DNA of 63,874 bases, counting the filler, from Reclinomonas americana ATCC 50394 (Eukaryota): the NCBI GenBank assembly GCA_048213135.1. It is 12 parts of 12 records of this genome, joined end to end, with 100 filler letters (N's around TTAATTAATTAA, not from the genome) between each part and the next. Parts side by side here need not be neighbours in the genome. Positions count along the whole stretch, not along the records: positions 43,205 to 50,745 come from AFZH01018804.1; 11 more parts are not named here. One strand, given 5' to 3'. The notes under the pieces are model-generated. The model worked only from the letters and a program-made list of their open reading frames with translations. It was not told the origin of the DNA and made no database searches. This document shows, piece after piece, positions 43,592 to 49,760 of the stretch (position 1 is the first letter of the stretch; each line of letters starts with the position of its first letter). The translations under genes were made by a program, and so were the position numbers.

Positions 43592-44677
43592 ATGTCTCTC
43601 GCTCCTTCTCGCCCTTCTCTCTTCCCTTTCAAGTGCCTCGCAGGGCACACTGCTGCGGTGATGTGTGTCGCCGTCACACCCGATGGTCGGCACATTATCA
43701 GCTCTGACACGTCTCTGCGTGTTTGGTCGCTGGCGAGTGGCGAGGAAGTGCGACGATTGGAGGGACACACAGAGATAGTGTACTCCGTTGCCGTCGCTCC
43801 TGACGGGAAGCACATCGTGAGCAGCAGTCGCGACTCGGTCATTGTGTGGTCGCTGGAGATGAGTGGAGAAGAAGTGCGACGATTGGAGGGACACGCTGGT
43901 TGGGCGTGGTCCGTTGCCTTCACCCCCGACGGTCAACACGTTGTAAGTGGAGGCAGTGATAACACTGTGCGAGTGTGGTCACTGGCAAGTGGAGAAGAGG
44001 TGCGACGCTTGGAGGGGCACACTGAATGGGTGAGATCAGTTGCCGTCACTCCCAACGGCCAGCATATTGTGAGTGGCAGCAGTGATCACACCGTGCGAGT
44101 GTGGTCACTTGTGACTGGCGAGGAGGTACGACGGCTGGAGCGACGCAACGCAGAGGTGCTGACGGTTGTTGTCACTCCCGACAGTGAGTACATTCTGAGT
44201 GGAGGAGGTGACGGAATTGTGCGAGTGTGGTCACTGGCGAGCGGCGAGGAGGTGAAAGGATACAACGAATGGGCGACATCACTCACCATCACCCCCGATG
44301 GGCGGCATGTTGTGAGTGCGAGTTGTGACGGCTTAGCGCGAGTGTCGTCACTGGCGAGTGGAGAAGAAGTGTGGCGGATGGAGGAGCACACCGGTGAGGT
44401 GTGGTGTGTGGCTGTCGCCGTCACTCCCGATGGTCAACACGTTGTGGCCGGCGGAGAGGACAAGGCCGTGCGCGTGTGGTCTACTTCGTGCGGCCTCGCG
44501 CGCTGCGAGGTTGACCTTGCGCGTTCTGCGATGGAGGCCGTGCAGGAGATGCAGAGGGTTGCCTTTGGTGAAGGTGACTCTCGGTGCCTGCCAGAGATGG
44601 TACTGCGCTGCTTCATTGTCGAGGAGGCCGAGGCCATCGTGTATCGCCGAAGAGTCGACCCTGAGTCGCATTTGTGA
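43592..44677 (+). CDS. Intronless WD40-repeat protein (7 repeats) with conserved C-terminal helical tail, array copy 1
   Basis: MSLAPSRPSLF start; repeats GHxxxVxSVAVTPDGxHxVSGxxDxTVRVWSLASGEEVRRLE; tail RCLPEMVLRCFIVEEAEAIVYRRRVDPESHL. Confidence 0.92.
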   Translation: MSLAPSRPSLFPFKCLAGHTAAVMCVAVTPDGRHIISSDTSLRVWSLASGEEVRRLEGHTEIVYSVAVAPDGKHIVSSSRDSVIVWSLEMSGEEVRRLEGHAGWAWSVAFTPDGQHVVSGGSDNTVRVWSLASGEEVRRLEGHTEWVRSVAVTPNGQHIVSGSSDHTVRVWSLVTGEEVRRLERRNAEVLTVVVTPDSEYILSGGGDGIVRVWSLASGEEVKGYNEWATSLTITPDGRHVVSASCDGLARVSSLASGEEVWRMEEHTGEVWCVAVAVTPDGQHVVAGGEDKAVRVWSTSCGLARCEVDLARSAMEAVQEMQRVAFGEGDSRCLPEMVLRCFIVEEAEAIVYRRRVDPESHL

Positions 44678-44845
44678 ATCTTTTCCCGTGGTGATTTGTC
44701 AAGTAAAATGCAGTTGTGATGGAGTTTTGCAGTGTGCATGTTTTCTTCTCACAGCTTGCGAGCTCGGTGTTTTGCGCAACGAAGACACGCCTGCTCACAG
44801 CGTCGACACAAGGCGTCCGCGTCCTGCAATAAGCATCTTTCCACC

Positions 44846-45940
44846 ATGTCTCTCGCTCCTTCTCGCCCTTCTCTCTTCCCTTTCCAATGCATTCGTGGGC
44901 ACCCCGCTACGGTGAAATCTGTCGCCGTCACTCCCGATGGCCGACACATCGTGAGTGGCAGTCACGATGAGACTGTGCGCATGTGGTCACTGGCAAGTGG
45001 CGAGGAAGTGCGACGCTTTGAGGGGCACGTGGGGATCGTGTACTCCGTTGCCATCTCTCCCGATGGTCAGCATGTCGTCAGTGGGAGTGCGGACAAGACT
45101 GTGCGTGTGTGGTCACTGGCAAGCGGAGAAGAGGTGCGACGATTGGAGGGACACGCTGGATGGGTGAGAACTGTCGCTGTCACTCCCGATGGCCAGTTTG
45201 TGGTGAGTGGAAGCAACGATCGCACCGTGCGCGTGTGGTCGCTTGAGAGCGGGCGAGAGGTGCGGCGCTTGGAGGGACACACTGATAGAATTAGATCAGT
45301 CGCCGTCACTCCCAATGGCAAGTTCATTGTGAGTGGCGGCAATGATTGCACTGTACGAGTGTGGTCTTCCGTGAATGGAGAGGAGGTGCGACGGTTTGCG
45401 GGCCTCACCGCCGAGGTGCTGACGGTTGTTGTTGCTCCCGACGGCCATCACGTTTTAAGCGGTGGCGTCGATGGAACAGTGCAATTATGGTCACTGGCGA
45501 GCGGCGAGGAGGTGCGGCGGCTGGGGGAATACGGCGAATGGGTGACAGCACTTGCCGTCACCCCCGACGAGCGGCACGTTGTGAGCGGCAGCGATGACAG
45601 AGCAATACGAGTGTGTTCACTGGCGAGCGGACAAGAAGTGGTACGGATGGAGGGGCACTCTGGCAGGGTTTGGTGTGTCAGTGTCACTCCTGACGGTCAA
45701 CATGTTGTCAGCGGCGGCGAAGACAAGACCGTGCAAGTGTGGTCCACTCCGTGCGGTCTCGCGCGAGAAGAGCTCCACGCAGCGCAAGCGGCGATGTTCG
45801 CTGTGCAGGAGATGGAGCAGCTGGCCTTTGATGAAGGTGACTCTCGGTGCCTTCCAGAGATAGTGCTGCGCTGCTTCATTGTCGAGGAGGCCGAGGCCAT
45901 CGTTTATCGGTACAGCGTGGACCCCGACATGCATTTATGA
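44846..45940 (+). CDS. Intronless WD40-repeat protein, array copy 2
   Basis: Same architecture as copy 1; ends VDPDMHL. Confidence 0.92.
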   Translation: MSLAPSRPSLFPFQCIRGHPATVKSVAVTPDGRHIVSGSHDETVRMWSLASGEEVRRFEGHVGIVYSVAISPDGQHVVSGSADKTVRVWSLASGEEVRRLEGHAGWVRTVAVTPDGQFVVSGSNDRTVRVWSLESGREVRRLEGHTDRIRSVAVTPNGKFIVSGGNDCTVRVWSSVNGEEVRRFAGLTAEVLTVVVAPDGHHVLSGGVDGTVQLWSLASGEEVRRLGEYGEWVTALAVTPDERHVVSGSDDRAIRVCSLASGQEVVRMEGHSGRVWCVSVTPDGQHVVSGGEDKTVQVWSTPCGLAREELHAAQAAMFAVQEMEQLAFDEGDSRCLPEIVLRCFIVEEAEAIVYRYSVDPDMHL

Positions 45941-48497: not shown

Positions 48498-48668
48498 ATG
48501 ATTGAGAGAGTTTCTTTTTCTTTGCGTTCTCTCGAGCTCCCGCGGCATCAAGTAAAATGCAGTTGTGAAGTAGTCTGGCAGGGTGCATGAATTACTCACA
48601 GCTTCGACACAATGCGTTCGTGTCCCGCTTAATCTTTCCATTTCGTTGCACGCCTCACTCCGTTCGCC

Positions 48669-49760
48669 ATGTCTCTCACTCTTTCTCGCCCTTCTCTCCT
48701 CGCCACCAAGTGTCTCGTGGGTCACACAGATATAGTGTCGTGTGTCGCCGTCACTCCCGACGGCCGACACATCGTCAGTGGAAGTTATGACAAAACCGTG
48801 AGTGTGTGGTTGCTGGCAAGTGGCGAGGAAGTGCGACGCTTGGAGGGACACACTAGATGGGTGGAATCTGTCGCCGTCACTCCCGACGGTAAACACGTTG
48901 TGAGTGGCAGTTACGACAGCACATTGCGTGTGTGGTCGTTGGAGAGCGGAGAAGATGTGCGACGATTGGAGGGACACACTCGAGTGGTGAGAGCTGTTGC
49001 CGTCACGCCCAATGGCGACTTCATTGTGAGTGGGAGTGACGATAAGACAGTGCGAGTGTGGTCTCTGGCAAGTGGAGAGGAGGTACGACGACTGGAGGGA
49101 CATACTTTGTGGGTAAGGTCAGTCACCGTCACGCCCAACGGCGAATTCGTAGTGAGTGGCAGCACTGATCGCACTGTACGAGTGTGGTCACTCGCGAGTG
49201 GGGAGGAGGTACGACGGTTTGTGGGCCACACCACAGAGGTGCCGACGGTTGTTGTTACTCCCGATGGTGAGTACATTCTCGGTGGCGGTAAGGGAATTGT
49301 GCGAATGTGGTCACTGGCGAGTGGCGAGGAGCTACGACAGCTGAAAGGACACGGCGACTGGGTGACATCACTCGCCATCGCGCCCGACGAGCGGCACGTG
49401 GTGAGTGCGAGTTGTGATGGCACAGTGCGAGTGTGGTCACTGGCAAGTGGAGAAGAAGTGGTACGGATGGAGAGACGCGCCGACGACCGGATGCTATCTG
49501 TCGCCATCACCGCCGATGGTGAGCACGTTGTGAGTGGAGGAGAGGACCATGCCGTGCATGTGTGGTCGTCTCCGTGCGGCCTTGCGCGAAAAGAGCTCCG
49601 CGCAGCACGAGAGGTGCTTGCGGCGGTGCAGGAGATGCAACAGCTGATTGCGGGGCCGGATTCTCGATGTCTGCCAGAGATGGTGCTGCGCTGCTTCATT
49701 GTCGAGGAGGCCGAGGCCATCATGTATCGGCGCAGCGTGGACCCTGAGTCGCATTTGTAA
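48669..49760 (+). CDS. Intronless WD40-repeat protein, array copy 5
   Basis: Same architecture as copy 1; ends VDPESHL. Confidence 0.92.
   Translation: MSLTLSRPSLLATKCLVGHTDIVSCVAVTPDGRHIVSGSYDKTVSVWLLASGEEVRRLEGHTRWVESVAVTPDGKHVVSGSYDSTLRVWSLESGEDVRRLEGHTRVVRAVAVTPNGDFIVSGSDDKTVRVWSLASGEEVRRLEGHTLWVRSVTVTPNGEFVVSGSTDRTVRVWSLASGEEVRRFVGHTTEVPTVVVTPDGEYILGGGKGIVRMWSLASGEELRQLKGHGDWVTSLAIAPDERHVVSASCDGTVRVWSLASGEEVVRMERRADDRMLSVAITADGEHVVSGGEDHAVHVWSSPCGLARKELRAAREVLAAVQEMQQLIAGPDSRCLPEMVLRCFIVEEAEAIMYRRSVDPESHL

What the first reader, a model, noticed from the sequence alone, without database searches (positions are those of the whole stretch)
43592..49760. Tandem array of five intronless, diversifying WD40 genes with a conserved F-box/SOCS-like C-terminal tail: candidate immune or ubiquitin-ligase receptor family
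Seen in sequence: five head-to-tail genes at ~1.25-1.3 kb spacing with no introns, although every neighbouring gene is intron-rich. Each has 7 highly self-similar blades. The scaffold is constant, but the residues after GH (AAVMC, EIVYS, GWAWS, EWVRS, GRVTS, LVVHS, RWVES) and the x in SGSxD vary strongly. The tail is nearly invariant: helix plus RCLPE(M/I)VLRCFIVEEAEAI. Established: these variable positions form the propeller top binding face and are the diversifying sites in fungal HNWD (HET-E) non-self receptors. LPxE(I/V)L..I is the F-box core, and C-terminal adaptor boxes occur in WSB (WD40-SOCS) and poxviral ANK-PRANC proteins. Inference: variable substrate receptors coupled to a constant E3-ligase-recruiting tail, possibly for defence. 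The lack of introns suggests retroposition or horizontal acquisition.
Basis: partly seen in the sequence, partly recalled or inferred. Interest (0 to 1): 0.75.

Follow-up and report, generated by a model that had tools for sequence, protein, structure and literature searches.

The report
Five tandem WD40 genes, novel tail
A protist nuclear contig carries five diverged, intron-free copies of a seven-bladed WD40 gene whose binding face varies between copies, while a short C-terminal helical tail stays constant; that tail is seen elsewhere only in a jakobid EST and one unnamed contig, and no test run here shows it to be an F-box or SOCS box.

Summary
Five head-to-tail, intron-free ORFs of 361-364 aa lie at 43592-49760. 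CDS identity is 75-83% nt, so they are not assembly duplicates. Each encodes a confident 7-blade WD40 propeller plus a ~61-aa tail.

One caveat: the window is a string of contigs joined by N linkers. Only one neighbour is physically linked, an SmD3 gene with short GT-AG introns.

All copies are under purifying selection (dN/dS 0.33). Amino-acid change is concentrated on the D-A and B-C loops of the top face: dN 0.53-0.59 against 0.13-0.16 elsewhere. Omega there is 0.44-1.0 and not significantly above 1.

The tail matched no Pfam family in 0 of 7 tails and no F-box or SOCS chain in PDB. Fold searches gave only generic helical hairpins. Among 1.84 billion representative proteins the tail occurs twice: a Reclinomonas americana EST and one unnamed propeller protein.

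Best reading: modular adaptors with a variable face and a constant docking tail of a new kind. The E3-ligase reading remains possible but unsupported. The propeller is closest to prokaryote-type, consensus-like WD40s.

The parts
43105..43204 (.). Contig joint (N44 + 12-base all-frame stop linker + N44): upstream end of the array's contig
43440..43591 (+). Upstream region of g1, homologous to the inter-copy spacers (putative promoter / 5' UTR of the repeat unit)
   Evidence: alignment (row 'before1')
43592..44677 (+). g1: WD40 gene, 361 aa. The most eroded copy: small deletions in blades 1 and 6, and GH or W lost in some blades. The ORF is intact.
44846..45940 (+). g2: WD40 gene, 364 aa
46142..47230 (+). 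g3: WD40 gene, 362 aa. Modelled as a 7-blade propeller (about residues 12-300) plus a tail (about 302-362).
47412..48497 (+). g4: WD40 gene, 361 aa, counted from the family-conserved ATG. The ORF is also open from an upstream ATG at 47343.
48669..49760 (+). g5: WD40 gene, 363 aa
47045..47227 (+). C-terminal tail of g3, 61 aa: helix, short loop, then a helix carrying the invariant CLPE..LRCF..VE motif. Equivalent tails: g1 44489-44674, g2 45752-45937, g4 48312-48494, g5 49575-49757.
47156..47191 (+). 36-nt block (codons for LRCFIVEEAEAI) identical at every base in all five copies. Equivalents, derived from the repeat offsets: g1 44603-44638, g2 45866-45901, g4 48423-48458, g5 49686-49721.
   Evidence: offsets
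44678..44845 (+). Inter-copy spacer with blocks conserved between units. The other spacers are 45941-46141, 47231-47411 and 48498-48668. The duplicated unit is therefore gene plus flanks.
50293..50620 (+). 5' part of an SmD3 (Sm/LSM) gene on the same contig. Exons read by eye at about 50293-50332, 50456-50524 and 50597-50620, separated by GT-AG introns. The contig ends inside the next intron.
50746..50845 (.). Contig joint: downstream end of the array's contig

Best explanation
These are five functional, tandemly duplicated nuclear genes of a protist, probably a jakobid or a relative. Each encodes a stand-alone 7-bladed WD40 propeller of the consensus-like, prokaryote-type class, followed by a ~60-aa C-terminal helical hairpin. 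That hairpin belongs to a very small, lineage-restricted family. The whole unit of promoter region, CDS and 3' flank was amplified by unequal crossing-over, and the copies have since exchanged blade-sized segments. Proposed mechanism (inferred): they act as modular adaptors. The D-A and B-C loops on the propeller top face differ between paralogues and give each copy its own ligand preference. The invariant tail docks every paralogue to the same partner or assembly. That partner is unknown. The tail is not demonstrably an F-box, SOCS box or PRANC domain, and is best treated as a new docking module.
For: Shown directly. (1) Five intact ORFs with dN/dS 0.33 at dS about 0.42-0.71, so every copy is held by purifying selection. 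(2) A confident 7-blade model and Pfam WD40 E 1e-66 to 1e-73. (3) Change is concentrated on the top face. At the a-priori positions H+3, H+5 and D-1, dN is 0.533 against 0.159 elsewhere. At the extended set, dN is 0.586 against 0.129. The bottom loops are low, with dN at 0.17-0.32 of propeller-wide dS. The strand map of the model puts these positions in the D-A loop, the start of strand A and the B-C turn. (4) The tail is constrained: omega 0.33 overall, 0.27 for its last 38 aa, and 36 of 62 columns invariant. (5) The same tail motif follows a much more divergent propeller in P0002, which has 26% overall identity and only weak WD40/PQQ hits, and also occurs in a Reclinomonas EST. The tail is therefore an older, separately conserved module. 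(6) Segment identities are mosaic: g1-g3 blade 3 is 93%, g4-g5 blade 2 is 90% and the g1-g2 N-terminus is 96%, against a 75-83% background. (7) The spacers are conserved between units. (8) The contig is eukaryotic and nuclear, because an intron-containing SmD3 gene lies 533 nt downstream. Inferred: ligand diversity, and docking to a common partner.
Against: No partner, ligand or expression data exist for these genes. Omega at top-face sites is not above 1, so neutral drift at unconstrained loops explains the pattern equally well. The tail is modelled with low confidence: pLDDT 31-58 in the full-length model and a mean of 68 when folded alone, from an alignment of only 7 sequences. Its hairpin shape is therefore tentative. 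g1 shows erosion, with indels and lost GH/W. The 36-nt block with no synonymous change hints at a nucleotide-level constraint that the protein-docking model does not explain.
Confidence: 0.5

Rival explanations
1. One reading: the tail is a divergent, truncated F-box (as in poxviral ANK-PRANC proteins) or a SOCS/BC box. On this view the five proteins are interchangeable substrate receptors of a cullin-RING ubiquitin ligase, possibly used in defence.
For: All 7 tails fit a relaxed pattern LP..(hydrophobic)2..(hydrophobic)2 that resembles the start of F-box helix 1 (the F-box consensus is recalled, not tested). About 29 residues follow the LP, which is close to the length of a minimal F-box (recalled). 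A variable repeat domain joined to a constant short box is how FBXW, WSB and ANK-PRANC receptors are built (established knowledge, recalled). A helix-loop-helix beside a WD40 propeller is also how DCAF receptors hold DDB1 (recalled).
Against: No F-box, F-box-like, PRANC or SOCS_box Pfam match at E<=10 in 0 of 7 tails. The tail profile against all PDB sequences returned 2 chains at E<=10, a nucleoporin and a designed repeat protein, and no F-box or SOCS chain. The stricter LP.E(I/L/V/M)2 pattern, the BC-box pattern and LP.P are absent from 7 of 7 tails, and no WDxR-type motif occurs in any blade. The model has two long helices rather than the three short helices of an F-box, though at low confidence. 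The position is C-terminal, whereas cellular FBXW proteins carry the box N-terminally (recalled).
Confidence: 0.2
2. The genes are largely redundant duplicates of a horizontally acquired, bacterial-type WD40 gene. The top-face differences are neutral drift at loops that are unconstrained in any WD40, and the tail merely stabilises or oligomerises the propeller. There is no receptor-like diversification.
For: Omega at the variable sites is 0.44-1.0, with intervals spanning 1. g1 is visibly eroding. The closest solved structure is the actinobacterial PkwA WD40 (38% identity, TM 0.95), followed by designed consensus propellers and a Nostoc repeat propeller. The best sequence relatives, at 50-57% identity, are metagenomic proteins with FHA/TM or signal-peptide N-termini. 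Named bacterial hits reach 40-43%, against 31-38% for named eukaryotic hits. Foldseek's best weak matches to the tail model are hairpins from dimeric or oligomeric proteins.
Against: All five copies keep dN/dS at 0.28-0.38 after dS of 0.42-0.71, which argues against simple redundancy. The tail also follows a very different propeller in P0002, so it is more than a cap for this particular propeller. Similarity between consensus-like WD40 repeats can be convergent, so bacterial ancestry is not established. GC and GC3 of the array (0.58-0.60 and 0.60-0.62) are not alien to the window, whose 2-kb windows range from 0.48 to 0.60 GC.
Confidence: 0.2
3. The proteins are peroxisome-targeted cargo or co-receptors. 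The extreme C-terminus (-SHL) would act as a PTS1, echoing the Pex7-like WD40 proteins Gcp1-3 described in jakobids and other protists that carry a mitochondrial T2SS.
For: 3 of 5 copies end in a tripeptide fitting [SAC][KRH][LM] (the consensus is recalled). PMC8134430 (passages read) reports WD40 proteins with predicted PTS1 in jakobids, heteroloboseans and others.
Against: g2, g3, P0001 and P0002 end differently (-MHL, -SHY, -MYL, -LWW), so the tripeptide is not conserved even though the upstream motif is. The tail motifs and the blade motif gave 0 occurrences in the 10 text-searchable supplementary files of that paper, which are said to hold the Gcp sequences; 1 scanned PDF could not be searched. 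The tail profile found no Naegleria or other Gcp-bearing proteome entry.
Confidence: 0.05

Closest known systems
Prokaryote-type, consensus-like WD40 propellers (Thermomonospora curvata PkwA WD40, PDB 5yzv; Nostoc 'highly repetitive propeller', 2ymu; designed WRAP-T propellers, 7big)
   Same: Seven-bladed propeller with highly self-similar 42-aa blades. These are the best structural matches: 5yzv E 1e-31, 38% identity, TM (target-normalised) 0.95; 7big 34%; 2ymu 33%; WDR5 only 27-29%. The best sequence relatives share the same blade flavour. Blade-consensus identity is 28 of 31 to 29 of 35 comparable positions for P0083, P0036 and P0015, against a median of 0.68 over the 111 proteins compared.
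   Different: Those proteins carry other N-terminal domains (kinase, FHA, TM, signal peptide), or none. None of those inspected has this tail. The genes here sit in a eukaryotic nuclear contig next to an intron-containing SmD3 gene.
Cullin-RING substrate receptors that join a repeat domain to a short adaptor box (FBXW F-box/WD40, WSB WD40/SOCS-box, poxviral ANK/PRANC)
   Same: Works-like analogy only: a variable ligand-binding repeat domain plus a short, constant helical box, with a C-terminal position as in WSB and PRANC proteins (recalled). A relaxed LP-hydrophobic pattern is present in 7 of 7 tails.
   Different: No HMM, PDB-profile or motif match to F-box, PRANC or SOCS/BC box. The predicted fold is two long helices. 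Binding to Skp1 or Elongin C is untested.
Fungal HNWD / HET-E, HET-D NACHT-WD40 non-self receptors
   Same: Self-similar WD40 blades, with variation focused on the top-face positions after GH and before the conserved Asp. There are also signs of segment exchange between copies.
   Different: There is no NACHT or other N-terminal effector domain, since only 15 residues precede blade 1. Internal blade-to-blade nt identity averages only 63-68%, far below the near-identical repeats recalled for HNWD genes. Omega>1 is not shown.
Gcp1-Gcp3, Pex7-like WD40 proteins co-occurring with the mitochondrial T2SS in jakobids, heteroloboseans and malawimonads (PMC8134430)
   Same: Lineage-restricted WD40 proteins of jakobid-type protists, some with predicted PTS1 ends (passages read). 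3 of the 5 copies here end in -SHL.
   Different: None of the tail or blade motifs occurs in the paper's 10 searchable supplementary files. The propeller here is consensus-like, not Pex7-like, by its Pfam and Foldseek neighbours.

Membership tests
WD40 repeat / 7-bladed beta-propeller (Pfam PF00400) | Multiple WD40 repeat HMM matches above the gathering score | tested here: met
   g3: 7 stretches, E 1.8e-72. g5: 7 stretches, E 4.3e-73. g1: 6 stretches, E 8.4e-66. 3 of 5 genes scanned.
WD40 repeat / 7-bladed beta-propeller (Pfam PF00400) | Closed propeller of four-stranded blades | tested here: met
   AF2 model of g3 has 28 strands in 7 blades, with 10-residue block mean pLDDT 75-97 over residues 11-300. 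Foldseek gave at least 500 PDB matches at E<=1e-3, the best being 5yzv at TM 0.95.
F-box (PF00646 / PF12937) and poxviral PRANC (PF09372) | Match to a family HMM | tested here: not met
   0 of 7 tails matched any Pfam family at E<=10. HMMER's filters drop most hits weaker than about E 0.1, so only a recognisable match is excluded.
F-box (PF00646 / PF12937) and poxviral PRANC (PF09372) | LPxE(I/L)(I/L) start of helix 1 (consensus recalled) | tested here: not met
   The pattern LP.E[ILVM][ILVM] is absent from 7 of 7 tails. Only the relaxed LP..hh..hh pattern is present.
F-box (PF00646 / PF12937) and poxviral PRANC (PF09372) | Three-helix F-box fold | tested here: inconclusive
   The tail model has two long helices (residues 3-27 and 32-55) but a mean pLDDT of only 68 and pTM 0.36. 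Foldseek found 0 matches at E<=1e-3. The best VIA Z was 7.7, all generic hairpins.
F-box (PF00646 / PF12937) and poxviral PRANC (PF09372) | Binds Skp1 | not testable with these tools
   No Skp1 of this organism was available: no genome is held for the window. The complex tool's reference option covers only bacteria, archaea and phages.
SOCS box (PF07525) | HMM match; BC box [STPA]LxxxCxxx[AILV] and Cul box LPxP (motifs recalled) | tested here: not met
   0 of 7 tails matched Pfam. Both patterns are absent from 7 of 7 tails. No SOCS-box chain appeared among the PDB profile hits at E<=10.
DCAF / DWD (DDB1-binding WD40) | WDxR-type motif at the end of blades (recalled) | tested here: not met
   W[DE][ILVM][RK] is absent from all 7 proteins.
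Fungal HNWD (HET-E/D) STAND receptors | N-terminal effector plus NACHT NTPase domain before the WD40 repeats | tested here: not met
   Only 15 residues precede blade 1. All Pfam hits listed for the three genes scanned are WD40 / beta-propeller families; the best 25 of 48-54 matching families were shown.
Fungal HNWD (HET-E/D) STAND receptors | Positive selection (omega>1) at top-face repeat positions | tested here: inconclusive
   Omega is 0.44 (bootstrap 0.16-1.29) for the a-priori set and 0.69 (0.39-1.14) for the extended set. It is 0.94-1.03 against propeller-wide dS. Three of ten pairs reach 0.99-1.53. With five sequences, no site-model test was possible.
Gcp1-3 (miT2SS-associated Pex7-like WD40) | Sequence belongs to the published Gcp sets | tested here: not met
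   There were 0 occurrences of four tail or blade motifs in 10 searchable supplementary files (1.15 million characters). One scanned PDF was not searchable.

The most novel reading that the evidence does not exclude
A jakobid-lineage invention: a bacterial-type WD40 propeller was captured by horizontal transfer and fused to a previously unknown ~60-aa adaptor box. The box is either a new class of cullin-RING (Skp1, Elongin C or DDB1) docking motif or a new oligomerisation module. The gene was then amplified into a recombining tandem array whose top-face loops diversify to recognise different targets, for example prey, symbiont or viral proteins. The 36-nt stretch with no synonymous change inside the box would be a shared RNA-level control site that co-regulates all copies.
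Probability: 0.12. Interest if true: 0.7.

Novelty: new variant of a known kind. Interest (0 to 1): 0.35.

Why it matters
WD40 propellers are ordinary; the tail is not. It has no detectable relative in Pfam or PDB. Among 1.84 billion representative proteins it occurs only in one jakobid EST and one unnamed contig. Yet it is held almost invariant across five paralogues and also follows a very different propeller. If it proves to be a docking box for a ubiquitin ligase or another machine, it would add a new adaptor module from a deep-branching, poorly studied eukaryotic lineage. It would also give a compact example of a bacterial-type repeat domain being domesticated and diversified. If it does not, the locus is simply a lineage-specific WD40 gene family and of modest interest.

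Tried and rejected
- **Own genome search:** not possible, because no genome is held for this window.
- **Earlier findings of this scan:** nothing by place or by sequence.
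- **Sequencing runs for the 7.5 kb contig:** none was listed and no RNA holder was listed. Expression therefore could not be examined, and read laying was not used.
- **Tail search among proteins of near-query length:** 55 candidates, none at E<=0.01.
- **Tail profile among longer proteins:** only P0002.
- **ESM Atlas with the tail:** best score 0.79, below the level that shuffled sequences often reach.
- **Tail-encoding DNA in public collections:**
  - JGI metagenome contigs: 236 pattern matches, 0 confirmed.
  - IMG/VR: 1 locus.
  - GTDB genomes: 2 loci.
  - All three loci carry stop codons in the matched frame and are chance matches.
- **Second metagenome scan with P0013**, to see the context of the nearest propeller relatives: 52 pattern matches, 0 confirmed. 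Whether those relatives are bacterial rests on their domain architecture and source labels only.
- **Self-association of the tail** (complex prediction, 2 copies): no verdict. The score was 0.01 against a mark of 0.32, and the partner's own fold was uncertain. This is evidence neither for nor against binding.
- **Fold searches with the tail model:** Foldseek PDB gave 0 matches at E<=1e-3. VIA-align wide gave a best Z of 7.7, with generic helical hairpins only. No F-box or SOCS entry appeared in either printed list. For a low-confidence 61-residue hairpin that absence says little.
- **RNA structure around the invariant 36-nt block:** z-score -0.69, nothing special.
- **Rfam and tRNA scans of the window:** 0 hits each.
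- **Bacterial promoter/terminator scan of the contig:** near shuffle expectation and not relevant to a eukaryote.
- **Long ORFs elsewhere in the window:** 9 long ORFs had no Pfam family at E<=0.001. Of the 476 stop-to-stop ORFs of at least 70 aa outside the array, the 150 longest were scanned and 3 had hits at E<=1e-4.
- **Gcp1-3 identity:** considered and rejected.
- **Literature searches:**
  - 'Reclinomonas americana' + 'nuclear genome' gave 76 papers.
  - 'jakobid' + 'WD40' gave 15 papers.
  - A five-term search on WD40, tandem array, intronless, HGT and protist gave 8 papers.
  - From listings and abstracts only, none describes this family. Only PMC8134430 was opened, for passages and a supplement search.

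Full report
**What is there**

Between 43592 and 49760 the + strand carries five uninterrupted ORFs. Counted from the family-conserved ATG they are:
- g1 43592-44677
- g2 44846-45940
- g3 46142-47230
- g4 47412-48497
- g5 48669-49760

Repeat families anchored at the 5' end, the last blade and the tail each have exactly five copies, spaced 1254-1296 nt. The 168-201 nt spacers also align between units, and the same blocks precede g1. The duplicated unit is therefore gene plus flanks. That points to tandem segmental duplication by unequal crossing-over, not repeated retroposition.

The proteins are 71-78% identical to g1. The CDSs are 75-83% identical at the nucleotide level. This excludes assembly duplication.

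**Context**

The window contains 22 runs of exactly 44 N. They are arranged as 11 joints, each N44 + a 12-base all-frame stop linker + N44. The window is therefore a concatenation of contigs.

The array lies on its own contig, 43205-50745. The 246 nt upstream of the unit and the 811 nt downstream have no similarity to the array. tblastn with the five proteins finds nothing elsewhere in the window: 25 HSPs, all inside 43500-49800. Five is thus the complete count in this assembly.

An SmD3 gene begins 533 nt downstream of g5 on the same contig. Three colinear pieces of the read-through translation match residues 7-18, 18-41 and 41-50 of a solved SmD3 chain (best whole-sequence E 1.2e-4; all 9 chains at E<=1 are SmD3). 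The pieces are separated by GT...AG intervals.

So the array is in a eukaryotic nuclear genome, and its one verifiable neighbour is intron-rich. 'Every neighbouring gene' cannot be claimed, because the rest of the window is not physically linked. On the other contigs, the 150 longest of 476 stop-to-stop ORFs were scanned. Only 3 had Pfam hits: two Ion_trans pieces and one oxysterol-binding piece, all fragments. That fits split genes.

**The propeller**

Pfam finds 7 WD40 repeats in g3 and g5 and 6 in g1; three of the five genes were scanned.

AlphaFold2, run on a 7-sequence alignment, gives a 7-bladed propeller for g3. The 10-residue block mean pLDDT is 75-97 over residues 11-300.

Foldseek's best solved matches are:
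- the WD40 domain of the actinobacterial kinase PkwA (5yzv; 38% identity, TM 0.95)
- designed consensus propellers (34%)
- a Nostoc repeat propeller (33%)
- WDR5, at only 27-29%

In the 5.8-billion-protein collection, 1746 proteins scored E<=1e-20 among the 8000 candidates scored. The highest identities, 50-57%, belong to metagenomic proteins whose N-termini carry FHA, transmembrane or signal-peptide segments. Named bacterial hits (Gemmata/Gemmataceae, Planctomycetes, Nostoc, Anaerolineae) reach 40-43%. Named eukaryotic hits reach 31-38%.

Blade-consensus comparison over the 111 proteins compared (those of the 120 listed in which at least 4 blade units were found) gave 28/31 to 29/35 identical positions for the closest, against a median of 0.68.

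This leans towards a prokaryote-type origin, which would also explain the lack of introns. Two cautions apply. Consensus-like repeats converge, and I could not recover the genomic context of the nearest relatives. Horizontal acquisition is plausible but not shown.

**Where the copies differ**

I put all 35 blades into a 42-position register and pooled Nei-Gojobori counts over the 10 gene pairs.

| Region | dN/dS |
|---|---|
| Whole gene | 0.33 |
| Blades | 0.32 |
| Tail | 0.33 |
| Tail, last 38 aa | 0.27 |

Pairwise dS is 0.42-0.71. All five copies are therefore maintained by purifying selection.

Paralogue amino-acid difference peaks at unit positions 5, 6, 7 and 9 (just after GH) and at 25 and 27 (either side of the conserved Asp). 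Positions 18 and 28 are secondary peaks. The strand map of the model puts positions 5-9 in the D-A loop and the start of strand A, and positions 24-27 in the B-C turn. By established WD40 structure (recalled from G-beta and WDR5), these form the top face.

| Site class | dN | dN elsewhere | omega (95% bootstrap) |
|---|---|---|---|
| A-priori set H+3, H+5, D-1 (21 codons) | 0.533 | 0.159 | 0.44 (0.16-1.29) |
| Extended set (42 codons) | 0.586 | 0.129 | 0.69 (0.39-1.14) |

- Against propeller-wide dS, omega at these sites is 0.94-1.03.
- Three of the ten pairs reach 0.99-1.53 at the extended set.
- The bottom loops are low, at 0.17-0.32 of propeller-wide dS.

The evidence shows neutral-rate change at the binding face, not a demonstrated excess of non-synonymous change.

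Identities by segment are mosaic against the 75-83% background:
- g1-g3 blade 3: 93%
- g4-g5 blade 2: 90%
- g1-g2 N-terminus: 96%
- g3-g4 blade 7: 90%

This indicates gene conversion or recombination between copies.

Blade-to-blade identity within a gene averages only 63-68% nt. The same blade compared across genes averages 78%. The blades therefore diverged before the genes duplicated.

**The tail**

The last ~61 residues are invariant in 36 of 62 alignment columns, including the RCLPE(M/I)VLRCFIVEEAEAI stretch.

Tests of F-box/SOCS identity:
- No Pfam family at E<=10, first for 3 tails and then for all 7.
- A tail profile against all PDB sequences gave two chance-level chains (E 4.7 and 4.9), neither an F-box nor a SOCS protein.
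- Regular expressions for the BC box, the LPxP Cul box and the LPxE(I/L)(I/L) F-box start (consensus recalled) are absent from 7 of 7 tails. Only a relaxed LP-hydrophobic pattern fits.

Fold prediction:
- In the full-length model the tail is uncertain, with pLDDT 31-58.
- Folded alone it is a helix (residues 3-27), loop, helix (32-55) hairpin, with mean pLDDT 68 and pTM 0.36.
- Foldseek finds nothing at E<=1e-3.
- VIA-align's best Z of 7.7 lies within the generic helical background.

Membership of the F-box, PRANC or SOCS families is therefore not supported. A functional analogy cannot be excluded, because binding to Skp1, Elongin C or DDB1 could not be tested.

**How far the tail reaches**

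An exhaustive profile search of 1,835,955,588 representative proteins found two proteins at E<=1e-3.
- P0001 is a 116-aa fragment from an EST of the jakobid Reclinomonas americana (E 1.6e-19; the source name comes).
- P0002 is a 381-aa protein from an unnamed contig (E 3e-4). Its propeller is only 26% identical overall and barely recognisable as WD40: PQQ_2 at 1.2e-10 and WD40 at 0.0037. It still ends in the same motif.

Two further searches added nothing. DNA-level scans of metagenomic, viral and prokaryotic collections gave only chance matches.

The tail is thus a small, lineage-restricted module that is older than this array. The EST shows that a family member is transcribed in a jakobid.

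The published jakobid-associated WD40 proteins Gcp1-3 (PMC8134430, passages read) are a different family. None of four motifs occurs in that paper's 10 searchable supplementary files; one scanned PDF could not be read.

**An unexplained detail**

Inside the tail, 36 consecutive nucleotides (g3 47156-47191, the codons for LRCFIVEEAEAI) are identical in all five copies.
- The next longest invariant run in the 1.36-kb unit alignment is 12 nt.
- None of 2000 column or codon shuffles reached 36; the maximum was 27.
- Among amino-acid-invariant columns elsewhere, only 80 of 173 are also codon-invariant. That gives about 1e-4 for twelve in a row, or about 0.04 after correcting for position.
- The region has no unusual RNA fold, z -0.69.

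Either synonymous sites here are constrained at the nucleic-acid level, or this short stretch is preferentially homogenised. I cannot tell which.

**Verdict**

The specific claims of an F-box/SOCS tail, diversifying selection and immunity are not supported.

My best explanation is a family of modular adaptors with a novel docking tail (0.5). The rivals are:
- true cullin-RING receptors (0.2)
- drifting, redundant copies of an acquired bacterial-type propeller (0.2)
- peroxisomal targeting through the -SHL end present in 3 of 5 copies (0.05)

Novelty lies in the tail, not the propeller: a new variant of a known kind. Interest is moderate to low until a partner is found.

Noticed in passing
window 47156-47191 (and 44603-44638, 45866-45901, 48423-48458, 49686-49721): A 36-nt block inside the tail CDS is identical at every base in all five copies, although dS elsewhere is about 0.5. 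The next longest invariant run is 12 nt, and 0 of 2000 shuffles reached 36. No special RNA fold was found. The cause is unknown.
   Followed up: partly
window, 11 joints (e.g. 11367-11466, 43105-43204, 50746-50845, 62713-62812): The window is a concatenation of at least 12 contigs, joined by N44 + a 12-base all-frame stop linker + N44. Adjacency across these joints is not real genome context.
   Followed up: yes
window 50293-50745: The 5' part of an SmD3 (Sm core protein) gene, with three very short exons and GT-AG introns of about 123 and 72 nt. The introns happen to stay in frame without stops. The contig ends in a (GT)n microsatellite inside the next intron.
   Followed up: partly
window 2792-4268, minus strand: Two separate ORF pieces match the Ion_trans family (PF00520; E 6.8e-15 and 1.6e-7). 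This is a cation-channel gene split by introns.
   Followed up: no
window 61668-62249, minus strand: An ORF piece matches the C-terminal part of the oxysterol-binding protein family (PF01237, E 4.9e-9).
   Followed up: no
window 41400-42400: Long purine-rich trinucleotide-type low-complexity DNA that reads as poly-Arg, Glu/Lys-rich or Leu/Ser-rich runs in several frames on both strands. It lies on the contig before the array.
   Followed up: no
C-termini of g1, g4, g5 (44666-44674, 48486-48494, 49749-49757): Three of the five copies end in -SHL, which fits the PTS1 pattern (consensus recalled). g2, g3 and both outside relatives end differently, so this is probably not a conserved signal.
   Followed up: partly
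g1, window 43592-44677: g1 is the most eroded copy: a 2-aa deletion in blade 1, a 3-aa deletion before blade 6, loss of the GH dipeptide in two blades and of the strand-C Trp in blade 6. The frame is still intact.
   Followed up: no
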